DNA of 64,000 nucleotides from Candidatus Omnitrophota bacterium (GCA_015494465.1 WGBD01000004.1:68627-132626); one strand, 5' to 3'; numbered from the stretch's first letter, positions 1,069 through 24,301 are shown. Numbers and translations are program-made. The notes: generated by a model not told the origin, from the sequence alone.

Positions 1069-1101
1069 GGGGACGGCCAACCACGCCGTCCCTTTTTTAT
1101 T
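1069..1101 (+). terminator. Rho-independent terminator candidate downstream of groEL
   Basis: A 7-bp GC-rich stem (GGGACGG, 1070-1076, pairing with CCGTCCC, 1086-1092) is followed by TTTTTTATTT. Confidence 0.5.
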
Positions 1102-1196
1102 TCTCCTCGCTGAGGATTTGTTTTTAGAGAGGGAGCATTTGCATTATAATATCAATAATAATTCGCTGGTAGGCTACAGAATCCGGGAGGTCGCAG

Positions 1197-2823: not shown

Positions 2824-5800
2824 ATGAGGGGTGGGATCGAACCTGTATACATAGATGACCTCACCGGAGTACTTAACCGCAGATACCTTTACGATCGTCT
2901 CCATTACGAGGTGGAGGTGGCCGAGAGAGAGAACACCTCGTTGTGGATGGCGGTCATAGACATCGACGACTTTAAGGCCATAAACGACACTTACGGCCAC
3001 CTAGAGGGAGACAACATCTTAAGGGAAGTGGCCTCTATCTTCCGCCGGTCGGTAAGGGCCACTGATAAGGTAATCCGGTTTGGTGGGGACGAGTTCGTTA
3101 TCCTCCTTACGGGAGGGGGATTGATATCAGCCCTCTCTGTGTTGAAGAGGGTCCGAGAAAACATCGCCCGCCACAGATTCTCCACCGGGATAACTGGCTT
3201 GACCATCGAGTTGACCATAAGCGTGGGATTAGCTGGCTATCCCGACGATACATCCGATCCCGAAAGGCTCCTCAGTTTGGCTGATGAGGCCCTTTACATG
3301 GCCAAGAACAAGGGTAAGGCAGGCATTGCCTTGGTATCGGACATACCTGCGGTGACTTTGCTCAGCAGAGAAATACTGGAACTGTTTCCCTCCAAGAGGA
3401 TCGTCGCAAGGGATCGAGAACTGGAAAAGGTCAAGGCCTTCTTGGGCTCCAGGGACGATCGCGTCCTGGCGGTAAGCGGTGATTTCGGCGTTGGTAAAAG
3501 CAGATTCTTAAAGGAGATAGAGCAGATCGCTCCAATGTATTCATTCGTTCCCTTCTTTGCCACTACCTATGGGAGAAGGGCTCCTACTTTGTACGACATG
3601 TGGCGCCACTTTGAGCATAATTACCTAGATGTGTATCCAGATCTCATCTCCCAATTCTCTCCTCAGGCCTTGGAGAACATACAGGATTCTATGGCCTTGG
3701 TGCAGGACAGGCGAATTCTTTCCTCGATTGACCAATTCATCCGCAAGGTAGCCCAGAACTACCCAGTCGTGTTTATCCTTGACGACCTAGTATACAGCGA
3801 CGAAGAGAGCCTCTGGGCAATAGTTAGGCTGATGAGCAACTTTGGGCCCAATGCGAAATTCATCTATTCCACCGACTCGGACACATCCTTTGAACACATA
3901 AAAACCTATTCTTCTATATTTTCGGACAGGTTTACCGTCACCTCTATTGCCTTGCACCCACTCGACAGGGAAGGGGTGGAAGAGTTCATCAACTCCGTCT
4001 TGGCGAATCCACTTATGGATGGAGGGATACCCGAGCTATTGTTAGAGGTTAGCAAGGGAAATCTGATGTTCCTTGAAGAACTCTTAAAGTACATGATTGC
4101 CAAGCGCATGGTATATAAATCCCACCAAAACTGGATCTTCCGCTCTTCTCGGGAGATAAGAAACGAGATAGAAGGCATTGGATTTTTTGAACTCATGCTA
4201 AAGCGGGTTCATACCCTAGAGGCGATGTTGTTCAAAGAACTGCACCAGCTAGCTTCCCAGGGAAAGAGCGTCTCTGAGATATGGAAACAAGAGATAGGTG
4301 TCGTCAGAAAGGGTTATCTTCTGGACATCGTGAAGGCCCTCCACAAGGAAAAACTTCTACGCAATCGGCGGTTCTATGTGGAAGACTATCCTAATGTGGC
4401 AGTGAAGGAGATATACAGCATTCTCCTGGAAAAGAACAAAGAGATACGGAGCGATTCCGTTGAATTGATCCACAAAGGTCCAGCCTCACAGACTTCTATA
4501 GTAGATAGATTGTCCTCGCTTTTTTCGTATCCTAAGCTGAATTTGAACGATCCGGAGCCGTATTCGTTTATCTCAGAATTTTGGCAGGGAATGAGCAGTC
4601 TATTGGAGATAGAAAATCTTCAAGAGTTGTCTCGGAGGGTGAGTGAATTCTCCGAAAGACTTTATCCCAAATTGAAGAAGTTGTTCTCCTCGGTTACTCT
4701 GATTACCTTTAGCGTAAACGAAGAGGGACTTTTAGTCAACGAGATCCCGGTGTCCTTTCTGGAAAAAGGAATCGTGGAAAGTATCCGTAGACTCTTTGAG
4801 CTGATGGACAAAGAGGCCATAACGATTTTGGGTTCTATCTCTGAGGACGATTTTCGCTACCTGATCTGGTATCTTATCCTGGTCTCCATGGGGGTTTCCA
4901 CTGTATATCTAAGATCGGAATCGGTGCTCTTTAACAAAGTATCCCCCCATAAGCTCAGAGAGATCTTCTACCAGTCATCGAATGAAATCCCAGCTTCCGC
5001 AGATGCCAAGCAAGATAGGTCTCAATCGGTGGAGTTTTACAGGGCCCAACAGATGGTGATCTATACATACCTATTCGTAGATCCTAAGGATTACGATTCC
5101 ACAAGTGCCTTGAAAGAGCTCTTTACGGATAACGCCTCTCTGCTCAGGCTTTGGCTCCTTGGAGTCTCTCTTAATTACTATTCTTGGGGGATCCCTAAGT
5201 TGGTGAAAACGGCATTAGCCGATCTGCATCCCGGCCAATTGGCGGAGAACTTGGATCTTCTGTATCAGAATAAACTCATCCCGAGACAATTCATACAGAT
5301 CCTCTTGGAGGTTTTGCCTTCCCAAGTACAAAAGGAGTGTTACGAGTCCTTACCTGAAGAACTCCGCATGCAAGTCCTGGGCAAGGCTGAAGACGGAGAG
5401 CAAATGTATAAGTCTCTCCTCTCCCTTTCTGACCTTGACAGATGGGGAGAAGCCCTCTATCAGGGGGTCGGAGACTTCATAGAGGGCCTCCGTTCAGATG
5501 AGAACGTGCTATATCTCTTTATGGATTCCCTCGAGATGAGCCTTGGGGAAACCTCTATCTTCTGGACCCTGTCCCCTCTGATTCCCCAGATGGTAAGGGC
5601 ATTATACCAAAAAGAGATGGACTTGATGGCCCAAAAGGTGATCGATACCTATCTGGCCTCGTTGGTCGCCCAGGGTTTTCAACACGATAGATTCCTGATC
5701 TTTGCCAAATCCGTCGTCTCTGCTATGCTCCAGTACGAAAAGAATAGCTCCTACATAATGCGCGTAATAACCATGCTGAAAAGGTGGAACAACATCCCTT

Positions 5801-6372
5801 ATGCCCGTATTCTTTCAGATGTGGAGATCATGGTAGATACCTTCTACTTGGTAGAAAGGTTCTTCACCATGGTCTCCAACGGTGAGGGGGAGGACGGGAC
5901 CTTGGTTAGGATTATATTTACGGTCGGGGAACTCCCCATGCGCTACTTCCTGCGCAGGTTGATCATCTCCGAAGACATAAGCTCTTTTGGATACTTCGAC
6001 CTGTTCCTCGCCCGGAGGGTGGTAGGGATGAATGTGCCCCCGGAGAGGAAACAAGAGGTGGTTAATCTCATCACCGCCTATCTTAAGAGCGATGTGTGGT
6101 ATGTGGTACGCAATGCTATGGAGCTTTTGTCCTACATTATATCGCCTAACGAAGTAGACATATTCAGACCTTTGCTTTACTACCCCAACGAAAGGGTCCT
6201 AAAGCGTCTGGTCTTTATCCTGTCACGATTAAAAGGCCCGCTGGCAGAAAAGATGCTACTAGAGCTCCTAAAACAGCCCAACCTGAGCAAGGACATACAG
6301 GAGAGGATCTACAAGGTACTGCGCAAGTCGAAGGATCCGGAACTGCTTGCGGAACTGAATGCTTTAATCTAA
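2824..6372 (+). CDS. Multidomain signalling protein: N-terminal GGDEF diguanylate cyclase (intact GGDEF motif plus RxxD I-site), central P-loop STAND/AAA-like NTPase, and C-terminal alpha-helical (HEAT/ARM-like) repeat region
   Basis: 1182 aa. GGDEF domain: LTGVLNRRYL...RATDKVIRFGGDEFVILL (nt ~2860-3330). Walker A VSGDFGVGKSRF (nt ~3480-3505) and Walker B VVFILDDLVYSDEE. The remaining ~750 aa is helical-repeat-like, e.g. PNERVLKRLVFILSRL. Confidence 0.8.
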   Translation: MRGGIEPVYIDDLTGVLNRRYLYDRLHYEVEVAERENTSLWMAVIDIDDFKAINDTYGHLEGDNILREVASIFRRSVRATDKVIRFGGDEFVILLTGGGLISALSVLKRVRENIARHRFSTGITGLTIELTISVGLAGYPDDTSDPERLLSLADEALYMAKNKGKAGIALVSDIPAVTLLSREILELFPSKRIVARDRELEKVKAFLGSRDDRVLAVSGDFGVGKSRFLKEIEQIAPMYSFVPFFATTYGRRAPTLYDMWRHFEHNYLDVYPDLISQFSPQALENIQDSMALVQDRRILSSIDQFIRKVAQNYPVVFILDDLVYSDEESLWAIVRLMSNFGPNAKFIYSTDSDTSFEHIKTYSSIFSDRFTVTSIALHPLDREGVEEFINSVLANPLMDGGIPELLLEVSKGNLMFLEELLKYMIAKRMVYKSHQNWIFRSSREIRNEIEGIGFFELMLKRVHTLEAMLFKELHQLASQGKSVSEIWKQEIGVVRKGYLLDIVKALHKEKLLRNRRFYVEDYPNVAVKEIYSILLEKNKEIRSDSVELIHKGPASQTSIVDRLSSLFSYPKLNLNDPEPYSFISEFWQGMSSLLEIENLQELSRRVSEFSERLYPKLKKLFSSVTLITFSVNEEGLLVNEIPVSFLEKGIVESIRRLFELMDKEAITILGSISEDDFRYLIWYLILVSMGVSTVYLRSESVLFNKVSPHKLREIFYQSSNEIPASADAKQDRSQSVEFYRAQQMVIYTYLFVDPKDYDSTSALKELFTDNASLLRLWLLGVSLNYYSWGIPKLVKTALADLHPGQLAENLDLLYQNKLIPRQFIQILLEVLPSQVQKECYESLPEELRMQVLGKAEDGEQMYKSLLSLSDLDRWGEALYQGVGDFIEGLRSDENVLYLFMDSLEMSLGETSIFWTLSPLIPQMVRALYQKEMDLMAQKVIDTYLASLVAQGFQHDRFLIFAKSVVSAMLQYEKNSSYIMRVITMLKRWNNIPYARILSDVEIMVDTFYLVERFFTMVSNGEGEDGTLVRIIFTVGELPMRYFLRRLIISEDISSFGYFDLFLARRVVGMNVPPERKQEVVNLITAYLKSDVWYVVRNAMELLSYIISPNEVDIFRPLLYYPNERVLKRLVFILSRLKGPLAEKMLLELLKQPNLSKDIQERIYKVLRKSKDPELLAELNALI

Positions 6373-6381
6373 TATAAGATC

Positions 6382-6837
6382 ATGGACTGGTTAAAGGCCT
6401 TATCTGGTAAGAAGAAGCAATTGATAGGGCAGATCGTGCGTCGAAAGGGCTACGTAACTGAAGAGCAGATAAGGGAGGCGCTTAAGTATCAACAAGAACT
6501 GTCGGAAAAGCTTCCACTCGGTGAGATCCTCATCCTAAAGGGTTTTATAGACGAAGACAAGCTCTTGGGTGCAATCTCGGCCCAATCGGGAGTGCCTTAC
6601 CTGTCACCCTTCGACTACGATGTCGATAAACGGCTGTTTTTGTTAATACCTAAATCGGTGGCAGAAAGGTATGTCATATTCCCGTTAGATAAAAAGGCGG
6701 ACCTGCTCTGGTTGGTCGTGAGCGATCCCTACGATCGAGAGATGTTCCTCCACATAAGGGACTTAACGGGTTGCAAGATCATGCCGTTCTTGGCCACAAA
6801 AGATGAGATACGCAAGGCGATAGAAGAGTTTTATTGA
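6382..6837 (+). CDS. Standalone T2SSE_N / MshEN-like domain protein (putative c-di-GMP receptor)
   Basis: 151 aa with two tandem ~24-residue motifs of the MshEN type: LIGQIVRRKGYVTEEQIREALKYQ and PLGEILILKGFIDEDKLLGAISAQ. These are followed by the GspE-N-like beta region (YVIFPLDKKADLLWLVVSDPYD). There is no ATPase domain. Confidence 0.7.
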   Translation: MDWLKALSGKKKQLIGQIVRRKGYVTEEQIREALKYQQELSEKLPLGEILILKGFIDEDKLLGAISAQSGVPYLSPFDYDVDKRLFLLIPKSVAERYVIFPLDKKADLLWLVVSDPYDREMFLHIRDLTGCKIMPFLATKDEIRKAIEEFY

Positions 6838-6854
6838 TCAAAAAGGAGGGAAGA

Positions 6855-8060
6855 ATGCCCAGATTTATCTATTACGCCAAGGACAAAGACGGGAAGACCA
6901 CTCGAGGGATAGTAGAGGCCAAGGACAAGGCTATGGCCCTAGATATACTCCATCGCCGAGGTATGGTCATCTTGAGATTGGAAGAGGAATTGGTCAAGGG
7001 CAAAAAACCCGGATGGGGGCAATCGGTTCCACTGATGGACCTGGTCCTTTTCACTCGCCAGTTAGCTACTATGATAGATTCGGGTATTCCCTTACCCCAG
7101 GCCTTTGAGATATTGTACGAACAGGTCAGCAGGCCTTACTTTAAGAAGGTGATATACGCTGTCAAGGAAGACATAGAGGCAGGTGAGAGCCTTTCCAATG
7201 CCCTTTCTAAATTCCCGACGGTATTCTCACCATTGTACATCCACATGATAAAGGCAGGTGAGGCCAGTGGTGCGCTGAGTGAGATCATGGAAAGATTGGC
7301 TAGTTACCTAGAGAGTGCCAATACCCTCGCTACCAAAGTAAGGTCTGCCATGGTCTACCCGGTGGCGGTCTTGATCGTGGCCTCCTTGATCACCGCGGGA
7401 TTGTTGATATTCGTTGTCCCTATATTTAAGGATCTGTTCGAAAGCCTAGGGGGTGAATTACCGCTTCCCACCCGGATCCTTATGGCCACCAGCGACATCC
7501 TGAGACATTACGCCCTGATCGTGGCAATCGTTATCGGTATATTGGTCTTTGCCTTGCTGAAGGCGATAAACACCGAAAAGGGAAGGTACATCTACGACAG
7601 TCTACTATTGAAGTTGCCAGTGATAGGTGACCTCTTGAAGAAGGTCGCTATAGCCAAGTTCGCCAGGACCTTTGCTACCTTGATGAAGAGTGGGGTTCCG
7701 ATCTTGGATAGTTTGGAGATAGTGGCTCGAGTCAGCGGGAACAAGGTGATCGAGCAAAACCTATTGAGGGCCAAGGAAGGGGTAAAGGAAGGCGAAAGCA
7801 TATCTAAGCCACTGGAGAAGGCGGGCATCTTTCCTCCCATGGTCTACCGAATGGTAGCGGTGGGTGAGCAGACCGGTGAGTTGGAGAAGATGTTGAACAA
7901 GATATCGGACTTCTACGAGGAACAGGTCAACGCAGCGATAGAGGCCTTGACCTCGGTGATGGAGCCGATTATCATGGTAGTCTTGGGTGGGCTCATCGGT
8001 GGTATCGTCATATCGCTGTATCTGCCCGTCTTCAACATCAGCAAGCTGTTACAGCAGTAA
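6855..8060 (+). CDS. Type II secretion / type IV pilus platform protein (GspF/PilC family)
   Basis: ~401 aa from the ATG at 6855 (ribosome-binding site AAGGAGGG). It has two GspF repeats with three transmembrane segments, e.g. GIPLPQAFEILYEQ... and GVPILDSLEIVARVSGN. The TTG at 6834 offered by the ORF track is a less likely start. Confidence 0.85.
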   Translation: MPRFIYYAKDKDGKTTRGIVEAKDKAMALDILHRRGMVILRLEEELVKGKKPGWGQSVPLMDLVLFTRQLATMIDSGIPLPQAFEILYEQVSRPYFKKVIYAVKEDIEAGESLSNALSKFPTVFSPLYIHMIKAGEASGALSEIMERLASYLESANTLATKVRSAMVYPVAVLIVASLITAGLLIFVVPIFKDLFESLGGELPLPTRILMATSDILRHYALIVAIVIGILVFALLKAINTEKGRYIYDSLLLKLPVIGDLLKKVAIAKFARTFATLMKSGVPILDSLEIVARVSGNKVIEQNLLRAKEGVKEGESISKPLEKAGIFPPMVYRMVAVGEQTGELEKMLNKISDFYEEQVNAAIEALTSVMEPIIMVVLGGLIGGIVISLYLPVFNISKLLQQ

Positions 8061-9400: not shown

Positions 9401-9898
9401 TTGCAGGAGGAGGTCATGCAGGTAGCGATAATAATGGGAAGCAAGTCCGACTATCCCTTGGTCAAGGAGGGTGAGGACCTTTTGAAGGCCTTTGATGTGT
9501 CTTACGACGTAAGGATCCTCTCCGCTCACCGCACCCCGGAGGCCTTGGTGGAGTATGTCAAGTCGCTGAAGGACAACGGGGTGAGGGTAGTAATCGCAGT
9601 AGCGGGCAAGGCCGCTGCCCTGCCCGGGGTAGTGGCAGCACATACCACCCTGCCGGTGATTGGGGTGCCGGTAGAGACGAAGCTGTTGGGCCTGGATTCG
9701 CTGTTTTCGATCTGTCAGATGCCTGCCGGAGTCCCGGTTGCGACCATGGGGATAGGCAGATCCGGGATGATTAACGCGGTACTCTTTGCCATACAGATCC
9801 TTGCGGGGGAGGATCCAGGATTGGAACAGAGGCTGTTGGCCTACCGCGAGGAGATGGCCCAGAAGGTACTTCTCTCCGAACGCGAGATCAAGCCTTGA
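9401..9898 (+). CDS. purE: N5-carboxyaminoimidazole ribonucleotide mutase (PurE)
   Basis: MQVAIIMGSKSDYPLVKEG...SAHRTPE...VAGKAAALPGVVAAHTTLPVIGVP. The start may instead be the ATG at 9416. Confidence 0.9.
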   Translation: MQEEVMQVAIIMGSKSDYPLVKEGEDLLKAFDVSYDVRILSAHRTPEALVEYVKSLKDNGVRVVIAVAGKAAALPGVVAAHTTLPVIGVPVETKLLGLDSLFSICQMPAGVPVATMGIGRSGMINAVLFAIQILAGEDPGLEQRLLAYREEMAQKVLLSEREIKP

Positions 9899-10983
9899 GG
9901 ATATACGAGTTGGATCAAAACAACCCCGATAAAGGGGTGCTGTACGAGATAGCCACGATCCTCAAGGAGGGAGGGATCGTCGCCTTACCTACCGAAACCG
10001 TTTACGGCCTTGCGGTGTGCGTAGACATACCGGAGGCGGTAGAGAGGTTGCGCCGGATAAAGAACCGTCCGGGGGACAAACCCTTCCCGATCCAGATCTG
10101 GCCTAGTAAGAAGGTCTTTTCTCTTACCCCGAAGGACAAGATAGCCCCTAATGCCTACCGCCTTATCCAGAGGTTTTGGCCGGGGCCTTTGACGGTGATC
10201 TTCCCCGCAATGGATAAGGAAAGATTCGGAGAGAAGGTAGGGATCAGGGTCTCCGCGCACAGGGTAGTGCAAGAGTTATTAGGACTGGGGGACTTGGTGG
10301 TCTACATGCCCTCAGCCAATCCCTCGGGGAGTCCACCTGCCCAGAGTTTGCAGGAGGTGATCTCTTACTTCCCAAAAGGGCTGGATGCGGTGGTTGCCTC
10401 TGGGGGGGTTGAAGGGAAGGCCTCGACGGTGGTGGACATCACCACCTCACCTTGGAAGATAGCAAGGGAAGGGGCAGTTCCCGCTCAGGAGATACGAAGG
10501 GTGGAGCAGAGCAGACGGATCGTCTTCGTCTGCACCGGCAACTCCTGCAGGTCGGTTATGGCAGAGTACTATCTAAAAAAGCTCCTGTCCCAGCGGGAGG
10601 GAACGGAAGAGGTGGAGGTCTATTCCTGCGGGATCATGGTGGTGGACGGTATAGGTGGTGCCACGCCAGTGGTGGTGGAGATGCTTGCCCGGGAGGGGAT
10701 GGACGCCTCCAGGCATGTCCGGAGGGCGATAAACGAATCCCTCCTCTTGGGAGCGGATCTCATCTTCGTAATGGAGCGCTATCACGAGGATGTGATATTG
10801 AGGTACCTACCGTTCCTAAGGGGCAGGATATACCTGTTAGGGGAATTCATAGAAGATCTCTCCACGGACCCCGAGATACCCGACCCGATAGGTGGGAGTT
10901 GGGAGGTTTACGAAGAGACCTACTCTAAGATCAAGAAGGCGGTAAATCGAATACTCGATCTAATAACGGGAGGTAAGAAATGA
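9895..10983 (+). CDS. Fusion protein: N-terminal L-threonylcarbamoyladenylate synthase (YrdC/Sua5 domain) joined to a C-terminal low-molecular-weight protein tyrosine/arginine phosphatase (LMW-PTP)
   Basis: The N-terminal domain has ALPTETVYGLAVC and a KxR-type YrdC fold (nt ~9895-10500). The C-terminal domain has the P-loop IVFVCTGNSCRSVMAEYY and a DPIGG motif (nt ~10500-10983). The apparent TTG start overlaps the purE stop. Confidence 0.8.
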   Translation: MRIYELDQNNPDKGVLYEIATILKEGGIVALPTETVYGLAVCVDIPEAVERLRRIKNRPGDKPFPIQIWPSKKVFSLTPKDKIAPNAYRLIQRFWPGPLTVIFPAMDKERFGEKVGIRVSAHRVVQELLGLGDLVVYMPSANPSGSPPAQSLQEVISYFPKGLDAVVASGGVEGKASTVVDITTSPWKIAREGAVPAQEIRRVEQSRRIVFVCTGNSCRSVMAEYYLKKLLSQREGTEEVEVYSCGIMVVDGIGGATPVVVEMLAREGMDASRHVRRAINESLLLGADLIFVMERYHEDVILRYLPFLRGRIYLLGEFIEDLSTDPEIPDPIGGSWEVYEETYSKIKKAVNRILDLITGGKK

Positions 10984-13636: not shown

Positions 13637-13709
13637 AGCCGGCGAGAGGACTCGAACCTCCAACCTACTGATTACAAGTCAGTTGCTCTGCCAATTGAGC
13701 TACGCCGGC
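13637..13709 (-). tRNA. tRNA-Thr (anticodon UGU)
   Basis: Minus-strand sequence GCCGGCGTAGCTCAATTGGCAGAGCAACTGACTTGTAATCAGTAGGTTGGAGGTTCGAGTCCTCTCGCCGGCT. The 7-bp acceptor stem, D-loop, anticodon loop CTTGTAA and T-loop GGTTCGAGTCC are all canonical; CCA is not encoded. Confidence 0.85.
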
Positions 13710-16106: not shown

Positions 16107-16448
16107 TCAACCCTTTTCCTCTATAGCAAGACTATCGTCTATCCAGTGCAGGAAACCTTCGTATCCCTCTTTTATCTCTATCGCTATCACGCAGGGGCAT
16201 TCGTAGGGATGGATTTCCAGCACCCTTTTCTCCAATGCGGGGAAGACATCTCTTCGCGTCTTTGCTATCAGGACTACTTCCGAGTCTTCTTCTATCCTGC
16301 CCTGCCACCAGTACATAGAATGTATCTTTGGTATAATGTTCACGCAGGCGCAGAGCCTTGCCTCCAAGAGGGACCTGCCTACCTTTTTGGCGGAATCCTC
16401 GTCGGGAGCAGTGATGTACACCAATATGTATTCCCTAGTCCTATCCAT
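16107..16448 (-). CDS. cutA: Divalent-cation tolerance protein CutA
   Basis: 113 aa; trimeric CutA1 fold motifs (YITAPDEDSAKKVGRSLLEARLCACVNI...YWWQG). Confidence 0.8.
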   Translation of the reverse strand: MDRTREYILVYITAPDEDSAKKVGRSLLEARLCACVNIIPKIHSMYWWQGRIEEDSEVVLIAKTRRDVFPALEKRVLEIHPYECPCVIAIEIKEGYEGFLHWIDDSLAIEEKG

Positions 16449-17037
16449 TCTCTTCAGCGAGGCGGTTGAACAGTTCCCGCTTCAATGCGTCCAGGTTGGC
16501 CTCCAGCATGGCCTCGAGGTCCAACCTTATCAATATTCCGCTCTCGGGGGCCTCCATGATTATCCCAAATTCTACGGAATCGTCCACTTGAATCCGCAGT
16601 GTGCAGTCCTGGTAGTGGGCCTGGATTACCCTCTGAAGGAGTTCGGCGTCTGCAGGGTGGATCCTGACCACCGCATCCCCTTGGCATTTGGGCATAGCGT
16701 GGTTCAGGAGCCTTAAGAGTATCTGGGAGTACCTGCCCTGATCCGATTTTACGCTCAGCATTGCCTGTCGCAGTCGGGGATAGAAGTCCTGCCATATCTC
16801 TTCCTTGGTCTGGCTCAGGGCAAGGGTCATCTCCTTATAGGCCTTGGCCTTGTATCGGGCAACGAGGGCTATCTTCTCGTGGAGGAATTCGCGCATCTTC
16901 GCCTCTTGCCACTCCTTCAGCTGGGCCTTTGCCTGAGAAAGTTCCCGTTCTTTCACCAGATTGGCCCTGCGGAGGATCTCTTCTACCTGCTTTTCTACCT
17001 TGTCCTTTATGTATTTTTTGAGTTCGTTAACCCCCAA
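16441..17037 (-). CDS. V/A-type ATP synthase subunit E (peripheral stalk)
   Basis: 198 aa. The N-terminal ~110 aa are charged coiled coil. The C-terminal globular part (GIIMEAPESGILIRLDLEAMLEANLDALKRELFNRL) matches the subunit-E pattern xVxNSLxxRLDxxW. It overlaps the upstream F-like gene by 11 nt. Confidence 0.6.
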   Translation of the reverse strand: MGVNELKKYIKDKVEKQVEEILRRANLVKERELSQAKAQLKEWQEAKMREFLHEKIALVARYKAKAYKEMTLALSQTKEEIWQDFYPRLRQAMLSVKSDQGRYSQILLRLLNHAMPKCQGDAVVRIHPADAELLQRVIQAHYQDCTLRIQVDDSVEFGIIMEAPESGILIRLDLEAMLEANLDALKRELFNRLAEENG

Positions 17038-17329
17038 GATTTACCCCCACCACCTCTGCTATAAGTCTGTTCGCGTCTATCTCTACATCCTTACGGACAT
17101 CCGGGATTATTACCACGATACTACCGCTATATTTCTTTTGCCAGTGGGTCAACTCCTTCTCTATCTCCCCAGCAACGCTCTGGGTCAAAAGAACGATATT
17201 GTTGCGGTTTTTCAGGAGGTCTTCCACCTTGCCCAACAGATCGGTGCGTCCCTCAGCTATTATAGGTTCAGCCCCAACCATACTCAGGGCGTAGACCGTC
17301 AGGCTGTCTCCCACGCAGACCAGTCTCAT
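17027..17329 (-). CDS. V/A-type ATP synthase subunit F
   Basis: 100 aa; Rossmann-like pattern MRLVCVGDSLTVYALSMVGAE...IVLLTQSVAGEI typical of V-ATPase F; 4-nt overlap with the gatB stop. Confidence 0.55.
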   Translation of the reverse strand: MRLVCVGDSLTVYALSMVGAEPIIAEGRTDLLGKVEDLLKNRNNIVLLTQSVAGEIEKELTHWQKKYSGSIVVIIPDVRKDVEIDANRLIAEVVGVNLGG

Positions 17330-18759
17330 CCCACACCCTCTTCCAAGAGTCGCTCCAGCAACTGTCGCACCTTCTGGGGATTAGCCTTGCCCCGCGTGGC
17401 CTTCATAACCTGCCCTACGAGGAACATCACCGCATTCTTCTTCCCCGAACGATAGTCCTGGACCACCTTGGGATTCTTCTCTATCGTCTCTCGGGCTAGG
17501 CCCTCGAGCATACCCTCATCCGAGACCTGTGCCAGCCCCTTCTCCTCCACTATGGCGCCGGCAGGTTTGCCAGTCTCTATCATCTCCTCCAAGACCTGCT
17601 TTACCACCAAGTTGTTGATCTTGCCCTCGTCCCACAGGTTGACCAGTTCGCTTAACTGTTCAGGAGAGACGGCCAGGTCCTTTACGGAGATACCTCTCTG
17701 ATTCAACTGCTCTGCTAGGATGCTTATCATCAGGTTAGCGCACTTCTTGGGGTTCTTCACCAACCGTGCGGTCTCTTCAAAGTAATCCGCAAACTCCTTC
17801 TCCAGGCAAAGGACCTTGGCGTCGTATTCGGTTATCTTGTACTCCTCAACCAAGCGCCTGCGCCTTGCCTTGGGCATCTCGGGCAGTTCCGAGCGCAGGG
17901 ATTCTATCGTTGAGGAGTCCACCTTTATAGGCAATAGATCCGGTTCGGGGAAGTAGCGGTAGTCGTGCGCCTCCTCCTTACTGCGCATACTCTGGGTTAT
18001 CCCTTTGTTGGCATCCCACAGTCGGGTCTCCTGCTGGATAGTCTCACCCGACTCCAGGGCGGATATCTGGCGCCTTATCTCGTACTCCAGAGCGGACTTT
18101 ACCCCCTTGAAGGAGTTGAGGTTCTTTATCTCGGTCTTGGTACCCAGTTTCCCTTCCCCTCTTCGCCGGACCGAGACATTGGCGTCGCACCTCAGAGAGC
18201 CCTTTTCCATGTCGCAGTCGGAGACGCCCAGATACTGCACGATCTGCTTCAAAGTGGTCAGGTATTCGTAGGCCTCCTCGGGTGAGGATATGTCGGGCTG
18301 GCTGACTATCTCCAGAAGGGGCACGCCCGCCCGGTTGTAGTCCACATAGGATGCCCCTTCACCGTGTATCAACTTCCCCGCGTCTTCCTCCATGTGGACG
18401 CGCTTTATGCCTATCTTTTTGGGGCCGTTTTCGGTGTCTATCTCTATCCATCCCTCCGTTGCTATTGGCATGTCGTACTGGGATATCTGATAGGCCTTGG
18501 GCAGGTCGGGATAGAAGTAGTTCTTGCGGTCAAATTTGGTGTACCCTGCTATCCGGCAGTTCAGGGCCAGACCGACCTTTATCGCGTATTCCAGGACCTT
18601 CTGGTTGAAGACCGGCAGTACTCCGGGGAATCCGAGGCACACGGGGCACACATTGGTATTGGGCTCTGCCCCGAATTCGTTCCTGCATCCGCAGAATATC
18701 TTGGTATTGGTGTTCAGTTGGACGTGCACTTCCAGACCGATGACCGCTTCCCAGTCCAT
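17326..18759 (-). CDS. gatB: Aspartyl/glutamyl-tRNA(Asn/Gln) amidotransferase subunit B
   Basis: MDWEAVIGLEVHVQLNTNTKIFCGC... with a C-terminal GatB/YqeY domain. The true start is probably the M at 18759; the ORF-track extension to 18828 overlaps gatA. Confidence 0.9.
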   Translation of the reverse strand: MDWEAVIGLEVHVQLNTNTKIFCGCRNEFGAEPNTNVCPVCLGFPGVLPVFNQKVLEYAIKVGLALNCRIAGYTKFDRKNYFYPDLPKAYQISQYDMPIATEGWIEIDTENGPKKIGIKRVHMEEDAGKLIHGEGASYVDYNRAGVPLLEIVSQPDISSPEEAYEYLTTLKQIVQYLGVSDCDMEKGSLRCDANVSVRRRGEGKLGTKTEIKNLNSFKGVKSALEYEIRRQISALESGETIQQETRLWDANKGITQSMRSKEEAHDYRYFPEPDLLPIKVDSSTIESLRSELPEMPKARRRRLVEEYKITEYDAKVLCLEKEFADYFEETARLVKNPKKCANLMISILAEQLNQRGISVKDLAVSPEQLSELVNLWDEGKINNLVVKQVLEEMIETGKPAGAIVEEKGLAQVSDEGMLEGLARETIEKNPKVVQDYRSGKKNAVMFLVGQVMKATRGKANPQKVRQLLERLLEEGVG

Positions 18760-18769
18760 AACTCCTCCT

Positions 18770-20185
18770 CTATTCAAACCTCGGGAACTTGGTGTGCCAC
18801 GGCGTTGCCTGTTCGTAGGCGTAGGCAACCCGGAACAAGGTCTTTTCGTCGAACGCCTTGCCTATAAACTGGACCCCTATGGGGAGTTTTTCGCTGTGCA
18901 GTCCGCAGGGCAAGGATATCGCAGGTAGCCCTGCCAGGTTTGCGGATATCGTGAAGACATCGGAGAGGTACATGGCCAAAGGATCGTTTATCTTCTCCCC
19001 TATACGGAACGCAGGCGTAGGTGAAGTCGGCGTCATTATTACATCGTATTCGGTGAAGGCCTGATCGAAGTCGCGTTTTATGAGTGCCCTAACCTTCTGC
19101 GCCCTTAAGTAGTAGGCATCGTAGTATCCGGAAGAAAGGACATGGGTCCCGAGTATGATCCTGCGCTTGGCCTCGGGCCCGAACCCAGCCTCCCGGGTGC
19201 GCAGGTACATATCCAATAGGTTTCTGCCCTTTATCCTCAATCCGTACTGGACACCGTCAAACCGGGCCAGATTGGAACTTGCCTCTGCGGTGGCAACGAT
19301 GTAGTAGGTGGCAACGCAGTACTTTGTGTGGGGCAGGGATATCTCCTCACACCTCGCCCCCAGATCCTGCAGGACGACCCTTACATTGTTCACGAAGTGC
19401 CTTACCTCGGGATCTATGCCCTCTTCAAAGTATTCCTTGGGCACGCCAACCTTTACCCCTTTCAGGTCCTTGCTGAGGTATTGTAGATAGTTGTCCACCT
19501 CTACCTCTGCAGAGGTGGAATCCATCTCGTCGTATCCCGCTATTACCTGCAGGACTCGGGCGCTGTCCTCCACATTGCGAGAGAAGACCCCTATCTGGTC
19601 CAGACTGGAGGCAAAGGCTATCAGGCCATAGCGGGATACCCTCCCGTAGGTCGGCTTCAGCCCCACCACCCCGCACAGGCTGGCGGGCTGTCTTATGGAT
19701 CCCCCGGTGTCCGATCCCAAGGCCACGGGGACCATCCCACTGGCGACCGCAACTGCAGATCCACCGCTGGATCCCCCCGGCACCCTTTCCTTGTCCCAAG
19801 GATTGCGGGAGGGATAATAACAGGAGGTCTCGCACGAGGATCCGAATGCAAACTCGTCCATGTTGGTCTTTCCTATCAACACCGCCCCCGCGGACTTGAG
19901 GCGCTTTATCACCGTCGCGTCGTAAGGCGGGCGGAATCCCTCCAGTATCCGGGAACAGCAGGTGGTAAGTTTGCCTTCTTCGCATATGTTGTCCTTAATC
20001 GCTATCGGGACGCCGTAGAGAGACCCGGAATCTGCCTCCGGTTCGGCGTCGGAGAATATGCCATTGGGGATAAAGGCCTTCAACTCCTCCTGCAGTTGGT
20101 CGATACGCCTCAGAAACGAGTCCCGTATTTCCTTCCAATCCCCACCGGATCTTAACCTGTCCTGTATCTCAGAGATGGTCATCAT
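18770..20185 (-). CDS. gatA: Glutamyl-tRNA(Gln) amidotransferase subunit A (amidase signature family)
   Basis: 471 aa; amidase signature [33 protein letters not shown]. Confidence 0.9.
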
Positions 20186-20202
20186 AGATTCATACCTCGC
20201 AG

Positions 20203-20487
20203 TTATTCTATCACCTTCGGCACCACGAAGAATCCGTCCTTTGCCTCCGGGGCATTGGACAGGGCCTTGTCCCTATCCAGCGAGGGTCTTACCTCGTCCT
20301 TCCGAAAACGGTTGGTAATCGGCAAGGGGTGATACATCGGCTCCACCCCGGAGATGTCCACCTCCTTGAGCTGTTCTACATAACCCAGTATGTCCCCAAG
20401 TTGAGATGAGAACAGTTCCTTCTCCTCCTCGCTCAACTCTATCCTTATCAAGCGGGCAAGGTAATCCACCTTATCGAACTTCCCCAT
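20203..20487 (-). CDS. gatC: Glu-tRNA(Gln) amidotransferase subunit C
   Basis: 94 aa; begins [24 protein letters not shown]...; position immediately upstream of gatA. Confidence 0.85.
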
Positions 20488-20499
20488 ATTCGCCTCCGC

Positions 20500-21114
20500 C
20501 TATTCCTCCTTCATCAATTCCAGTTCCCTAAGGACCTGACGGGCGAACTGCTCCGCAGCAGACGGACCGGAGCCGGTAACTATACCACCGTCGGAAACCA
20601 CCGCCTCTGCCCGGTACTTTGCTCCCTTCTCCTCTATCCTGCGGGCCTCGGAGTGCCACACCGTCGCCTCCTTCCCCTTCAGCAGGCCCGCATTGGCCAG
20701 GGTCACCGGGGACAGGCATATAGCGGAGACCAGTTTACCTTGTTTGTAGAACTCGTTCAACAGGTCCTGCACCTTCTTGTCGTTGAAGTAGGTCTGGGCC
20801 CCGACGCCTCCCACCAAGACCACAGCGTCGAACCCCTTGGGATCTATCTCGTCTATGGTGATGTCCGGCATGACCTTTGCCCCCAGCATTCCCACGCAGG
20901 TCTTCTTCTCCCGGGAGGCCACCACGACCTCGTAGCCTGCCTGTTGGAATATCCTCTTGGGTACCAATAGCTCCTCGTCCCGGAAGTTCTTGGGGGCGAT
21001 TATCATTAAGATTCGGCCCTTGGATGATCCCTTGGCAGAGGAATCCATCGCACTCCAACCCGGCAGTGCAACCAGCATGGCAATCGCCAGTCCCGACAAC
21101 CAATTCCACCTCAT
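20500..21114 (-). CDS. DJ-1/PfpI (ThiJ) family protein with an N-terminal signal peptide
   Basis: 204 aa. Hydrophobic leader MRWNWLSGLAIAMLVALPGWSA; the DJ-1 fold contains the nucleophile-elbow Cys in LVSAICLSPVTLANAG. Confidence 0.8.
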   Translation of the reverse strand: MRWNWLSGLAIAMLVALPGWSAMDSSAKGSSKGRILMIIAPKNFRDEELLVPKRIFQQAGYEVVVASREKKTCVGMLGAKVMPDITIDEIDPKGFDAVVLVGGVGAQTYFNDKKVQDLLNEFYKQGKLVSAICLSPVTLANAGLLKGKEATVWHSEARRIEEKGAKYRAEAVVSDGGIVTGSGPSAAEQFARQVLRELELMKEE

Positions 21115-21129
21115 AATCCACCTCCCCCT

Positions 21130-22146
21130 TTACGCGGAGCTTGCCAATACTCTCTCTTCTACCTCGTCAAAGTGCCTGCGCAGTTCCTCCACCGAGCAGG
21201 TAGCCACGCCCACCTTACCCACCACCACGCCTGCGGATATGTTGGATATCACCGCCGAGCGGACAGGATCCAGGCCCACTGCCCTTGCCAGCGTAAACGA
21301 GGCTATCACCGTATCCCCCGCTCCGGAGACATCGTAGACCTCCAGGGCAGCGGTGGGTATGTGAACCGACCTCCTCGGCAAGTACAACTTCATCCCCAAT
21401 TCGGACAAGGTCACCAATAATCCCTTCAGAGAAAGCCGGCGCATAAGGGCGCGGGCGGATTTGTCGACATCCGCCATGGTCTTAAGGGGCCTGCCGGCCG
21501 CCTCTGCCAGTTCCTTGCGGTTGGGAGTTATCACATCAACATTGCGGTAGAAGGAGAAGTGGTCCTTCTTGGGGTCTACGCTCACTATCTTCCTCTGCTT
21601 GTGGGCGTAGGGTATGATCCTGCTCAAAAGGGAGCGGGTAATCACGCCCTTGCCGTAATCCTCTATTATCACCGCATCCGCCTCGTCAATGGCAGCCTTT
21701 GCGAGTTGTAACAGGCGCTCTTCGTATCTGCGCTCAAGATCCGACGGATCCTCCCGATCTATCCTGACGACCTGCTGGCTATGGGCAACCACCCGGGTCT
21801 TGACGGTGGTGGGCCGGTCGTCTACCTCAAGGATCCCGTTGGTGTCCACGCCCGAGTCTCCCAACATCTTCCTAAGGCGCCTCCCCGCCGAGTCTTTACC
21901 CACTATCCCGCACACCATCGCCCGTCCACCGAGGGCGGTGATGTTCCGAGCCACATTCGCCGCTCCACCCGGCATAAAGGATTCCCGCTTAACCCATACC
22001 ACCGGGACCGGCGCCTCGGGAGATATCCTGTCCACCTCCCCCCATACAAACTCATCGAGCATCAGGTCGCCCACCACGAGCACCTTTGCCCGGGGAAATG
22101 CGGATATCGCCTCCTCCAACTCCGCCCTAGTGAGCAATCTCCTCAC
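21130..22146 (-). CDS. PfkB-family sugar kinase of the RfaE/HldE domain-I type (D-glycero-beta-D-manno-heptose-7-phosphate kinase-like), standalone
   Basis: 338 aa with [29 protein letters not shown] and a C-terminal GAGDT motif. The C-terminal adenylyltransferase domain seen in bifunctional HldE is absent. Confidence 0.75.
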
Positions 22147-24298: not shown

Positions 24299-24301
24299 CT
24301 C

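What the first reader, a model, noticed from the sequence alone, without database searches (positions are those of the whole stretch)
2824..8060. c-di-GMP module: a GGDEF-STAND NTPase-helical repeat protein, then a standalone MshEN receptor domain, then PilC/GspF, with no secretion ATPase
The 1182-aa protein has an N-terminal, apparently active GGDEF domain (GGDEF plus an RxxD I-site five residues upstream). This is fused to a P-loop NTPase with Walker A and B motifs and a long helical repeat region. That is an unusual order, because sensor domains normally precede GGDEF.

Nine nucleotides downstream is a 151-aa protein consisting only of a T2SSE_N/MshEN-type domain. Its two tandem 24-residue motifs match the c-di-GMP-binding consensus (RLGxxLLxxGxLxxxxLxxALxxQ-like). 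A PilC/GspF platform protein follows, coupled by a 4-nt overlap, but no GspE/PilB ATPase gene is present in the window.

This suggests a split arrangement in which a free c-di-GMP-sensing N-domain regulates a pilus or secretion platform, supplied with c-di-GMP by the adjacent cyclase.
Basis: partly seen in the sequence, partly recalled or inferred. Interest (0 to 1): 0.6.

Follow-up and report, generated by a model that had tools for sequence, protein, structure and literature searches.

The report
Cyclic-di-GMP sensor cassette for a pilus
Three adjacent genes in an uncultured Omnitrophota bacterium (a signal-gated maker of the messenger c-di-GMP, a small free-standing c-di-GMP sensor and a pilus platform protein) form a conserved cassette that, in relatives, sits inside complete pilus gene clusters. 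In those clusters it appears to supply the sensing that the pilus motors' own sensor domains have lost.

Summary
Window 2824-8060 encodes a 1182-aa GGDEF / AAA_16 P-loop NTPase / alpha-solenoid protein, a 151-aa protein that is only an MshEN domain, and a PilC/GspF platform protein. No GspE/PilB ATPase lies anywhere in the 64 kb.

Two details are wrong. pilC starts at ATG 6855 behind an AAGGAGG site, leaving a 17-nt gap, not a 4-nt overlap. Neither 24-residue motif begins with Arg: they begin with Leu and Pro, both found in proven c-di-GMP-binding domains of Thermus PilF.

The source is Candidatus Omnitrophota. The trio is conserved in at least eight lineages. Synonymous sites are saturated, while MshEN stays as conserved as PurD.

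In more distant Omnitrophota the same trio lies inside full type IV pilus-like clusters, next to two full-length PilB ATPases. Those ATPases' own N-domains lack the ligand-contacting glycines. In 80 metagenomic pilC loci, all 12 complete free MshEN proteins keep the full signature, against 0 of 23 PilB N-domains in the same loci. A diguanylate cyclase gene lies next to, or one gene from, the free MshEN gene wherever upstream sequence exists.

So this is an extra, probably trans-acting c-di-GMP receptor with its own cyclase, not a severed ATPase head. It is a new variant of a known kind. Ligand binding and the target are inferred.

The parts
2824..6372 (+). 1182-aa diguanylate cyclase with a STAND-type layout: GGDEF, then AAA_16 P-loop NTPase, then a helical/winged-helix region, then a C-terminal alpha-solenoid.
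   Evidence: Pfam and NCBIfam hits. AlphaFold2 model with mean pLDDT 85.8. Full-length homologues P0009-P0017 at 33-100% identity, and more distant ones P0018-P0030.
2848..3327 (+). GGDEF catalytic domain (aa 9-168), with GGDEF at aa 87-91 and the RxxD I-site (R78-D81) five residues upstream.
   Evidence: PF00990 E = 1.7e-43. D46, D48, K51, N54, D55, G58, H59, G62, D63, R85 and G88-F91 are invariant in 18 homologues. Foldseek matches to solved GGDEF domains have TM 0.88-0.92 normalised to the target, at 33-43% identity.
3400..3843 (+). P-loop NTPase core (aa 193-340). Walker A is G218-S225 (GDFGVGKS) and Walker B is VVFILDD (aa 315-321).
   Evidence: AAA_16 at 38.4 bits against a cut-off of 32.6. 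Below-threshold hits to ATPase_2, KAP, NPHP3_N and NB-ARC. G222, G224, K225 and D320 are invariant in 38 homologues.
5011..6369 (+). C-terminal alpha-solenoid (aa 730-1182), the presumed sensor or partner-binding region.
   Evidence: The AlphaFold2 model shows about 25 consecutive helices, mostly with pLDDT 80-95. HEAT_2 matches below threshold at aa 1119-1180. No relative by sequence in the PDB.
6382..6837 (+). 151-aa protein consisting of one complete MshEN domain: an N-terminal four-helix c-di-GMP-binding subdomain plus a C-terminal alpha/beta subdomain.
   Evidence: PF05157 covers aa 70-151 and NF053729 covers aa 15-68. It aligns end to end with the N-domains of M. xanthus and Geobacter PilB and of Thermus PilF, and stops exactly at the domain boundary. 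Eight homologues of 151-152 aa at 60-94% identity.
6421..6492 (+). c-di-GMP motif I (aa 14-37): LIGQIVRRKGYVTEEQIREALKYQ.
   Evidence: Gly3, Gly10, the hydrophobic residues at positions 17 and 21, and Gln24 are present and invariant in the clade. Leu at position 1 fits the extended consensus (R/K/L)LG... (PMC11731258). Position 7 is Arg instead of L/V/I.
6514..6585 (+). c-di-GMP motif II (aa 45-68): PLGEILILKGFIDEDKLLGAISAQ.
   Evidence: It matches the relaxed motif [RKPN]hGxxhhxx[GAS]hhxxxxhxxxhxx[Q...] of Wang et al. 2016. Its first six residues, PLGEIL, are the same as in the c-di-GMP-binding GSPII-C domain of Thermus PilF, whose motif II also starts with Pro (P335).
6843..6849 (+). Shine-Dalgarno sequence AAGGAGG for pilC.
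   Evidence: Read directly from the sequence. It lies 5 nt before ATG 6855.
6855..8060 (+). 401-aa PilC/GspF-family inner-membrane platform protein.
   Evidence: PF00482 in two copies. PF28597 (T2SSF_N) in the public gene calls. NCBIfam PilC 410 bits and GspF 404 bits, both below the equivalog cut-offs. 64-72% identical to orthologues in the same clade and 47% to the PilC of full pilus clusters.

Best explanation
The three genes are a conserved local c-di-GMP signalling cassette belonging to a type IV pilus-like (T4aP/T2SS-like) machine of Candidatus Omnitrophota.

Step 1, inferred from architecture. The 1182-aa protein is built like a STAND signalling NTPase. The C-terminal solenoid senses a ligand or partner. 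Nucleotide-dependent oligomerisation of the P-loop module then brings the N-terminal GGDEF domains together. GGDEF domains make c-di-GMP only as dimers. The RxxD I-site gives product inhibition.

Step 2, inferred from conserved residues and gene linkage. The 151-aa MshEN-only protein binds that c-di-GMP through its two 24-residue motifs.

Step 3, inferred. The loaded receptor acts in trans on the platform protein PilC, whose gene always follows it in this family, and/or on PilB ATPases, to license filament assembly.

Shown here: in related clusters the PilB ATPases keep an MshEN-like N-domain that has lost the ligand-contacting glycines. The free protein therefore supplies the sensing function in trans rather than being a split-off ATPase head.

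In the window's lineage the cassette has been separated from the rest of the machine and sits between serA and purD. Its ATPase partner must be encoded elsewhere, which was not verified.
For: Lineage: Candidatus Omnitrophota.

The cassette is conserved with changing flanks in L001, L003, L005, L006, L031, L038 and L043.

Selection: synonymous sites are saturated in every orthologue pair. MshEN stays 60-76% identical, compared with PurD 62-65% and PilC 65-72%.

Cyclase: the catalytic, Walker A and Walker B residues are invariant over 18-38 homologues.

Full-cluster context: in L033/L034 and L036/L037 the order is pilB, pilB, GGDEF-AAA_16-HEAT, MshEN-only, pilC. L036 and L037 also carry a pilin-like (N_methyl) gene. 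On the opposite strand lie PilM_2, a secretin, a PilO-like gene and others.

Other free MshEN proteins are also wired to this machinery:
- P0331: HAMP-GAF-GGDEF, MshEN-only, PilB, PilB, MshEN-only, PilC, pilin.
- P0290: directly before PilC.
- P0345: directly before PilB.

80 metagenomic pilC loci:
- 13 carry a free MshEN. These are the loci whose PilC is closest to the window's (48-76% identity).
- A GGDEF gene lies next to it, or one gene away, in all 9 loci where upstream sequence exists. In the other four, the contig ends at or one gene before the MshEN gene.
- In L045 a REC-HD-GYP phosphodiesterase gene lies between pilB and pilC. L047, L050, L051 and L053 have a gap of matching size there, which was not scanned.

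Signature residues (Gly at position 3 and Gln at position 24 in both motifs):
- 12 of 12 complete free MshEN proteins have all four.
- 0 of 23 PilB N-domains in the same loci do.
- 11 of 29 PilB N-domains in loci without a free MshEN do. Fisher p = 0.0011, not corrected for relatedness.
- 0 of 118 PilB2-like ATPases have the full signature.

Across 24 diverse free MshEN proteins the invariant or nearly invariant positions are G16, G47, Q37, Q68, G54, L50 and Y151, mostly the ligand-contacting residues.

Leu or Pro at motif position 1 is compatible with nanomolar to sub-micromolar binding in Thermus PilF. The K167L variant has Kd 2 nM, and GSPII-C, with P335 at that position, binds with a Kd of about 0.3-0.5 uM (PMC11731258; PMC12002112).

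A distant homologue of the cyclase is followed by a 131-aa PilZ-only protein with intact RxxxR and DxSxxG motifs. So this cyclase family pairs with small dedicated c-di-GMP receptors of two unrelated folds.
Against: - No binding, catalytic or interaction data exist.
- A consensus match does not guarantee binding. PilF GSPII-A does not bind even after its consensus is restored (PMC12002112).
- The window protein has Arg at motif I position 7. Its NF053729 score (44.8) is no higher than that of the glycine-less PilB2 N-domains (44.4 and 39.4).
- The AlphaFold2 model of the 151-aa protein was poor (pLDDT 49.6), so the binding-site geometry could not be inspected.
- STAND membership rests on AAA_16, Walker motifs and predicted secondary structure only. 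No structural match to a STAND protein could be run.
- No pilB, pilM-Q, pilin or prepilin peptidase gene is in the 64 kb, and none could be located in this genome.
- The cis-degenerate / trans-intact correlation may reflect one or a few evolutionary events.
Confidence: 0.6

Rival explanations
1. One reading: a true split PilB. The MshEN domain has been severed from its ATPase, an N-domain-less PilB/GspE is encoded elsewhere, and the two re-associate.
For: The 151-aa protein ends exactly where the PilB N-domain ends. It sits where pilB normally sits, immediately upstream of pilC. No ATPase is in the window.
Against: In related clusters carrying the same cassette, both PilB genes are full length (555-576 aa) with their own PF05157 domain. 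Free MshEN and full-length PilB co-occur in 13 of 13 metagenomic loci with a free MshEN. All 118 PilB2-like ATPases longer than 500 aa aligned retain an N-domain.
Confidence: 0.1
2. [quoted passage not shown] It is a structural adaptor, or a competitive decoy, that uses the MshEN fold to dock on PilC/PilM (as the GspE N-domain docks on GspL). The neighbouring cyclase signals to other targets.
For: Matching the consensus is not sufficient for binding (PilF GSPII-A). Motif I deviates at position 7 (Arg) and at position 1. The NF053729 score is modest. MshEN C-subdomains are protein-interaction modules (established knowledge for GspE-GspL).
Against: The ligand-contacting Gly and Gln positions are the most conserved columns of the whole free MshEN family, more so than the C-subdomain. 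These same positions are lost in the neighbouring PilB N-domains. The linkage to cyclases of two different architectures, and to an HD-GYP phosphodiesterase, is systematic. One cyclase homologue has a PilZ receptor in place of the MshEN protein.
Confidence: 0.2
3. The cassette regulates a type II secretion-like exporter, for example for the giant surface proteins typical of Omnitrophota, rather than a motility or adhesion pilus. 'PilC' is then functionally a GspF. This changes the output, not the signalling logic.
For: GspF TIGR02120 scores 403.9, just under its cut-off of 424 and similar to the PilC models. Omnitrophota giant genes are reported next to T2SS-like loci with gspD/E/F (bioRxiv 10.1101/2023.11.21.568195; 10.64898/2026.06.07.730766). 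Giant ORFs lie 26 kb away in this window. In L033 a glycosyl-hydrolase-family gene (PF02836) lies upstream of the cluster.
Against: Related clusters carry PilM_2, PilO-like and N_methyl pilin genes. In L055 and L057 a PilT-like retraction ATPase gene lies two genes after the cyclase gene. These features are typical of T4aP. No GspC/L/M or pseudopilin set was identified.
Confidence: 0.25
4. The locus is a decaying remnant of a pilus cluster, left behind after rearrangement and no longer functional.
For: The genes are isolated among housekeeping genes (serA, purD, purE). One assembly shows the cyclase gene split into 331 + 849 aa (L003).
Against: ORFs are intact in at least eight lineages, although synonymous sites are saturated. 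Catalytic and ligand-binding residues are invariant. pilC has a strong Shine-Dalgarno sequence. A second contig of the L003 lineage shows a single ORF of at least 1132 aa that runs off the contig start (L004).
Confidence: 0.03

Closest known systems
MshE/PilB-type assembly ATPases with a cis N-terminal MshEN c-di-GMP receptor (V. cholerae MshE, Thermus PilF, M. xanthus PilB; PMC5013675, PMC11731258)
   Same: Same receptor fold and the same two-motif binding signature. Same output machinery, a type IV pilus or T2SS. The 151-aa protein aligns over its full length with these N-domains.
   Different: Here the receptor is a separate polypeptide with no ATPase. In related clusters the ATPases keep only glycine-less, presumably non-binding N-domains. 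The motifs start with Leu and Pro rather than Arg.
FimX-PilZ-PilB (Xanthomonas citri, PMC8389850) and FimX-PilB (P. aeruginosa, PMC5595344)
   Same: A separate c-di-GMP receptor protein acts in trans on the pilus assembly motor. This is the same regulatory logic proposed here.
   Different: The receptor fold is unrelated (a degenerate EAL domain plus a PilZ adaptor, against MshEN). Those systems have no dedicated cyclase encoded beside the receptor. The target proposed here may be PilC rather than PilB.
DgcJ-NfrB local signalling in E. coli (PMC8669469)
   Same: A dedicated diguanylate cyclase supplies c-di-GMP locally to an MshEN domain that switches on a membrane machine.
   Different: In NfrB the MshEN domain is fused to a glycosyltransferase, and the output is a polysaccharide, not a pilus. 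DgcJ is a membrane sensor cyclase, not a STAND-type protein.
STAND signalling NTPases with an N-terminal nucleotide cyclase effector (for example the mycobacterial class III adenylyl cyclase-ATPase-TPR proteins Rv0386/Rv1358/Rv2488c; recalled from my own knowledge, not checked here)
   Same: Same order: effector cyclase, then P-loop NTPase of the AAA_16 type, then helical repeats. GGDEF and class III cyclases share a fold.
   Different: The effector is GGDEF, making c-di-GMP rather than cAMP. There is no C-terminal HTH. The repeats are HEAT-like rather than TPR. GGDEF-AAA_16-TPR relatives exist in metagenomes, but I found no characterised example.

Membership tests
GGDEF diguanylate cyclase (PF00990) | Domain match above the curated threshold | tested here: met
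   148.6 bits against 23.8. TIGR00254 160.7 against 37.4. Foldseek TM 0.88-0.92 to solved GGDEF domains.
GGDEF diguanylate cyclase (PF00990) | Intact GG(D/E)EF active site plus metal- and GTP-binding residues | tested here: met
   GGDEF at aa 87-91. The D46/D48, K51, N54, D55, H59 and D63 equivalents are invariant in 18 homologues. The distant clade has AGDEF.
GGDEF diguanylate cyclase (PF00990) | RxxD inhibitory site five residues upstream of GGDEF | tested here: met
   R78-A-T-D81, conserved in P0009-P0017. It is K/RxxD in most of the distant homologues, but the Asp is replaced by Gly in P0025 and P0030.
GGDEF diguanylate cyclase (PF00990) | c-di-GMP synthesis in vitro | not testable with these tools
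   Needs an enzyme assay.
STAND-class P-loop NTPase (AAA_16 type) | AAA_16 match with Walker A and Walker B | tested here: met
   38.4 bits against 32.6. GxxxxGK[ST] and hhhhDD are invariant in 38 homologues.
STAND-class P-loop NTPase (AAA_16 type) | Helical arm plus winged-helix domain after the NTPase, and C-terminal repeat sensor | tested here: inconclusive
STAND-class P-loop NTPase (AAA_16 type) | Nucleotide-dependent oligomerisation that activates the N-terminal effector | not testable with these tools
   Needs biochemistry (SEC-MALS or cryo-EM with and without ATP/GTP).
MshEN c-di-GMP receptor domain (PF05157 + NF053729) | Both subdomains present and above thresholds | tested here: met
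   PF05157 62.5 bits against 23.1 (aa 70-151). NF053729 44.8 bits against 38 (aa 15-68).
MshEN c-di-GMP receptor domain (PF05157 + NF053729) | Gly at position 3 and Gln at position 24 of both 24-residue motifs (backbone and side-chain contacts to c-di-GMP) | tested here: met
   G16, Q37, G47 and Q68 are invariant in the clade and invariant or nearly so in 24 diverse free MshEN proteins.
MshEN c-di-GMP receptor domain (PF05157 + NF053729) | Position 1 of each motif is R/K/L (extended consensus, PMC11731258) | tested here: inconclusive
   Motif I has Leu, which fits. Motif II has Pro, which is outside the extended consensus but inside Wang's relaxed motif [RKPN], and is the residue found in the binder PilF GSPII-C.
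MshEN c-di-GMP receptor domain (PF05157 + NF053729) | Hydrophobic residues at positions 6 and 7 | tested here: not met
   Motif I position 7 is R20 (K20 in L031 and L038). Motif II is fine. The consequence for binding is unknown.
MshEN c-di-GMP receptor domain (PF05157 + NF053729) | Measured c-di-GMP binding | not testable with these tools
   Needs ITC or DRaCALA. The AlphaFold2 model was too poor to inspect the site.
PilC/GspF platform protein (PF00482) | Two T2SSF repeats plus the N-terminal cytoplasmic domain | tested here: met
   PF00482 in two copies, 221 bits. PF28597 (T2SSF_N) in the public gene calls.
PilC/GspF platform protein (PF00482) | Assignment to T4aP PilC or to T2SS GspF at equivalog level | tested here: not met
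   PilC models score 410 and 394 against a cut-off of 700. GspF scores 403.9 against 424. It can be placed at family level only.
Split PilB (ATPase lacking its N-domain encoded elsewhere) | The partner ATPase lacks an MshEN-like N-domain | tested here: not met
   This was tested only in relatives. There, all PilB genes next to the cassette are 555-584 aa with PF05157. The window's own genome could not be searched.

The most novel reading that the evidence does not exclude
A so-far undescribed class of type IV pilus-like machines, found in Omnitrophota and in unidentified metagenomic lineages, in which c-di-GMP sensing has moved from the assembly ATPase's own N-domain to a free MshEN paralogue. 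That paralogue partners with the platform protein PilC. It is fed by a dedicated cyclase, here one gated by a STAND-type NTPase switch, and in some clusters is reset by an HD-GYP phosphodiesterase encoded in the same cluster. The window's lineage keeps cyclase, receptor and PilC together even after separation from the ATPase genes. That would point to PilC, not PilB, as the receptor's direct target.
Probability: 0.3. Interest if true: 0.65.

Novelty: new variant of a known kind. Interest (0 to 1): 0.5.

Why it matters
c-di-GMP control of type IV pili is known through receptors built into the motor ATPase (MshE, PilB, PilF) or through FimX/PilZ adaptors.

These data point to a third arrangement: a free MshEN protein with an intact binding signature, encoded with its own cyclase and next to ATPases whose built-in sensors look dead. 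If confirmed, three things follow:
- A function is assigned to the many roughly 150-aa MshEN-only proteins in databases. They made up 25 of the 149 best representative hits after the query's own cluster.
- There is a natural experiment for how the MshEN domain transmits its signal, since it must work without a covalent link.
- There is an example of a STAND-type NTPase switch driving a diguanylate cyclase.

It also adds a regulatory layer to the pili or secretion systems thought to underlie the host-attached lifestyle of Omnitrophota.

Tried and rejected
- **pilB in the window's genome.** I searched the protein database with a related Omnitrophota PilB and looked for hits on the 781,960-bp contig that carries the window's cyclase. 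None of the best 120 hits matched that contig or any other clade contig. This is uninformative rather than negative.
- **AlphaFold2 of the 151-aa protein** with the 9-sequence alignment gave pLDDT 49.6, too poor for a fold search or site inspection.
- **dN/dS.** dS is saturated in every available pair, so only the contrast with retained amino-acid identity can be used.
I used a PilC alignment instead.
- **c-di-GMP riboswitch or other RNA elements.** Rfam found only one tRNA in the window.
- **Promoter and terminator scan of 1-10 kb.** Counts are at chance level. The only convincing signals are a terminator after groEL and a promoter-like site before serA. The cassette is probably co-transcribed with its housekeeping neighbours, but this is not shown.
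- **The P-loop NTPase of the 1182-aa protein as a substitute for PilB.** Rejected: it is an AAA_16 switch-type NTPase, not a PilB/GspE-type ATPase (no GPTGSGK[ST] Walker A), and related clusters have two genuine PilBs.
- **Literature.** Searches found no description of a free MshEN protein in a pilus cluster or of a GGDEF-STAND cyclase. The corpus is limited to open-access papers.

Full report
**What is in the window.** On the + strand, between serA (1197-2786) and purD (ATG 8083, ending at 9396), lie three genes.

The first (2824-6372, 1182 aa) has three recognisable parts:
- A GGDEF domain at aa 9-165 (Pfam E = 1.7e-43).
- An AAA_16 P-loop NTPase at aa 193-338 (38.4 bits against a cut-off of 32.6).
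- A HEAT_2 match below threshold at the C-terminus.

An AlphaFold2 model built on 38 homologues is confident (mean pLDDT 85.8). It shows, in order:
- the GGDEF domain;
- an alpha/beta P-loop module (about aa 197-380);
- a helical bundle (382-426);
- a beta-hairpin with helices that would fit a winged helix (430-462);
- more helices;
- a small alpha/beta insert (626-690);
- an alpha-solenoid (730-1182).

The second gene (6382-6837, 151 aa) matches PF05157 (MshEN) over aa 70-151. It also matches the NCBIfam 'c-di-GMP_motif' model NF053729 over aa 15-68 (44.8 bits against a cut-off of 38). It aligns end to end with the N-terminal domains of M. xanthus PilB, Geobacter PilB and Thermus PilF. It stops exactly at the domain boundary...AIEEFY against ...AIERYY.

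The third gene is a PilC/GspF platform protein with two T2SSF repeats.

No GspE/PilB-type ATPase, second PilC, second MshEN, second GGDEF or prepilin-like N-terminus exists anywhere in the 64 kb.

**Corrections of detail.**
- The claimed 4-nt overlap of genes 2 and 3 depends on the TTG at 6834. The sequence shows AAGGAGG at 6843-6849 followed by ATG 6855, the start used in public gene calls (401 aa). The real spacing is 17 nt. In orthologues this gap is 10-32 nt.
- Neither 24-residue motif starts with Arg. Motif I is L14-I-G...Q37 and motif II is P45-L-G...Q68. Motif I has Arg at position 7, where the consensus wants L/V/I.

**Is the small protein likely to bind c-di-GMP?** In MshEN the ligand is held by four kinds of contact (PMC5013675; PMC11731258):
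- backbone amides at motif positions 2-4, which is why Gly is needed at position 3;
- the Gln at position 24;
- hydrophobic residues at positions 2, 17 and 21;
- stacking by the residue at position 1.

All of these are present and invariant in the window clade: G16, Q37, G47, Q68, and I/L at positions 2, 17 and 21.

The non-Arg first residues have direct experimental precedent. In Thermus PilF, GSPII-B carries Lys and Leu at these positions and binds at 6 nM. Its K167L variant binds at 2 nM, and the authors extended the consensus to (R/K/L)LG... GSPII-C has Pro at position 1 of motif II. Its sequence there begins PLGEIL, the same first six residues as in the window protein, and it binds with a Kd of about 0.3-0.5 uM.

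There are cautions:
- PilF GSPII-A does not bind even after its consensus is restored. An N-terminal helix cap and inter-subdomain contacts block the site (PMC12002112).
- The window protein's NF053729 score is no better than that of PilB N-domains that lack the glycines.
- My AlphaFold2 model of the 151-aa protein was too poor to inspect (pLDDT 49.6).

I rate binding as likely, about 0.7, but not shown.

**Is the cyclase likely active, and is the domain order odd?** GGDEF is at aa 87-91, with RATD (RxxD) five residues upstream. The metal- and GTP-binding residues are invariant over 18 homologues, as are Walker A (GxxxxGK[ST]) and Walker B (hhhhDD).

An N-terminal effector, a central NTPase and C-terminal repeats is the standard layout of STAND-type signalling NTPases. 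GGDEF-AAA_16-TPR or -HEAT proteins, some with an added HD-GYP domain, turned up in several phyla. So the order is unusual for a GGDEF protein but normal for this NTPase class.

GGDEF domains need dimerisation to be active. NTP-dependent oligomerisation is therefore the natural activation mechanism, but this is an inference. STAND membership beyond AAA_16 and the Walker motifs could not be tested structurally.

**Origin and conservation.** The closest genomic relatives are Candidatus Omnitrophota MAGs. Eight 151-152-aa homologues at 60-94% identity exist.

The three genes stay together in every locus examined in the window's clade. They usually lie between serA and purD, and once after lpxB, with otherwise changing flanks.

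Synonymous sites are saturated in all pairs. Even so, the MshEN protein remains 60-76% identical, like PurD (62-65%) and PilC (65-72%). The cyclase evolves faster, at 42-45%. This rules out a decaying remnant.

**The key comparative result.** More distant homologues of the cyclase (about 27-30% identity, 1332-1345 aa) are followed by the same 151/152-aa MshEN-only gene and pilC. There the trio is embedded in a complete type IV pilus-like cluster. Two full-length PilB/GspE genes (555-576 aa, each with MshEN + T2SSE) lie directly upstream. Pilin-like genes lie downstream in L036 and L037. On the opposite strand are PilM_2, a secretin, a PilO-like gene and others (L033/L034 and L036/L037).

The free MshEN is an extra paralogue, not the ATPase's missing head.

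The N-domains of those PilBs lack Gly at position 3 of both motifs, and often the Gln at position 24. The free proteins in the same clusters match the extended consensus. None of 118 PilB2-like ATPases (50-100% identical to the L033 PilB2) has the full signature.

**Generality.**
- *Representative search.* An exhaustive profile-free search found 11,624 clusters with E <= 1e-3. Of the 149 best hits after the query's own cluster, 25 are full-length proteins of 135-193 aa consisting of MshEN only. The three whose contexts I could read are each wired to this machinery. One lies directly before PilB. One lies directly before PilC. One sits in the cluster HAMP-GAF-GGDEF, MshEN-only, PilB, PilB, MshEN-only, PilC, pilin.
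- *Metagenome scan.* A scan with a PilC alignment returned 80 loci, which I classified with local HMMs. The 13 loci with a free MshEN are those whose PilC is closest to the window's (48-76% identity).
- *Typical gene order.* The usual order is HAMP-GAF-GGDEF, then sometimes a PilT-like gene, then MshEN-only, PilB, PilB, PilC and a pilin. In L045 a REC-HD-GYP phosphodiesterase gene lies between the second pilB and pilC (Pfam). L047, L050, L051 and L053 have a gap of matching size there, which I did not scan.
- *Cyclase linkage.* A GGDEF gene lies next to the free MshEN gene, or one gene away, in all 9 loci with enough upstream sequence. The other four contigs end at or one gene before it.
- *More distant PilCs.* At 41-46% identity they show the canonical PilB-PilT-PilC order without a free MshEN.
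- *Signature residues.* All four are present in 12 of 12 complete free MshEN proteins. They are present in 0 of 23 PilB N-domains in the same loci, and in 11 of 29 PilB N-domains in loci without a free MshEN. Fisher p = 0.0011. This test ignores relatedness and may reflect few evolutionary events.
- *Conserved positions.* Across 24 diverse free MshEN proteins, the invariant and near-invariant columns are mostly the ligand-contacting ones: G16, G47, Q37, Q68 and G54.
- *A PilZ variant.* One distant cyclase homologue is followed not by MshEN but by a 131-aa PilZ-only protein with intact RxxxR and DxSxxG motifs.

Together these results make a dedicated cyclase-receptor pair the most economical reading.

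**Mechanism proposed.**
- Shown: the domain content, the conservation, the gene linkage, and the complementary pattern of intact trans and degenerate cis signatures.
- Inferred: (i) the solenoid senses a cue, and NTP-driven oligomerisation activates the GGDEF domains, with RxxD feedback; (ii) the free MshEN binds the product; (iii) it acts in trans on PilC and/or PilB to control filament assembly.

In the window's lineage, cyclase, receptor and PilC stay together although separated from pilB and pilM-Q. This hints that PilC is the direct partner, but it is only a hint.

Omnitrophota commonly encode T4aP and T2SS-like clusters, the latter near giant genes (PMC10066038; bioRxiv 10.1101/2023.11.21.568195). 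A partner machine elsewhere in this genome is therefore plausible. I could not verify it. Whether the output is a pilus or a T2SS-like exporter is also open: the PilC and GspF models both fall below their equivalog cut-offs.

**Comparison with known systems.**
- It works like the FimX-PilZ-PilB and FimX-PilB systems, where a trans-acting c-di-GMP receptor acts on the pilus motor (PMC8389850, PMC5595344).
- It also works like DgcJ-NfrB local signalling, where a dedicated cyclase feeds an MshEN domain (PMC8669469).
- The receptor is a member of the MshEN family by every sequence criterion tested except position 7 of motif I.
- It is not a member of the 'MshE/PilB ATPase' family, because it has no ATPase.
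- I found no description of free MshEN proteins in pilus clusters, or of GGDEF-STAND cyclases, in the searchable literature. That corpus is incomplete.

**Verdict.** This is a real, conserved and probably functional cassette. All parts belong to known families, but the arrangement appears to be an undescribed variant of c-di-GMP control of type IV pilus-like machines. That arrangement is a free MshEN receptor with its own cyclase, complementing ATPases with degenerate sensors. Interest is moderate (0.5). It would rise if binding and the trans mechanism were demonstrated.

Noticed in passing
window 34290-63998, minus strand: Three very large consecutive ORFs: 1635 aa (with a CheR-type methyltransferase match near its C-terminus), 1655 aa (no Pfam match), and at least 6555 aa that runs off the end of the window. 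This fits the giant genes reported for Omnitrophota. Its upstream region, where T2SS-like loci are reported, lies beyond the window.
   Followed up: partly
L035 8001-12315: A distant homologue of the GGDEF-AAA_16-HEAT cyclase (26% identity) is followed by a 131-aa PilZ-only protein with intact RxxxR and DxSxxG motifs, in place of the MshEN-only protein. The same cyclase family is thus paired with an unrelated small c-di-GMP receptor.
   Followed up: partly
L045 4777-5850: In L045 a REC-HD-GYP protein (357 aa), a likely c-di-GMP phosphodiesterase, is encoded between the second pilB and pilC. That cluster therefore holds synthesis, degradation and receptor genes together. L047, L050, L051 and L053 have a gap of the same size at that position, which I did not scan.
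   Followed up: partly
L012 (JAMOPD010000198.1): A contig binned as a Thermococcaceae archaeon MAG carries the Omnitrophota-type MshEN-only gene at 74% identity. It comes from the same sample series (4559-240) as an Omnitrophota MAG, so it is probably a binning error.
   Followed up: no
L003 2066-5632: In assembly GCA_053988655.1 the cyclase gene is called as two ORFs (331 + 849 aa). A Logan contig of the same lineage (L004) shows one ORF of at least 1132 aa. This is a frameshift or an assembly error rather than a real split.
   Followed up: no
window 9895-10983: A single ORF fuses a Sua5/YciO/YrdC domain (threonylcarbamoyl-AMP synthase) to a low-molecular-weight phosphatase domain (LMWPc). 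The fusion is conserved in all related loci.
   Followed up: no
window ~16400-31544, minus strand: V-type ATPase genes: a subunit-A-type Walker A (GGFGTGKT) at about 30842, and vATP-synt_E in the public gene calls that overlap window position ~16.4 kb. GatA/GatB-like ORFs lie among them. A tRNA is at 13637-13709 (minus strand).
   Followed up: no
window 1069-1150: A strong terminator-like hairpin (9-bp stem, 7 G-C pairs, T tract) follows groEL, and a 10/12 promoter-like site precedes serA. No comparable signal lies between serA and purE, so the cassette may be co-transcribed with housekeeping genes.
   Followed up: partly
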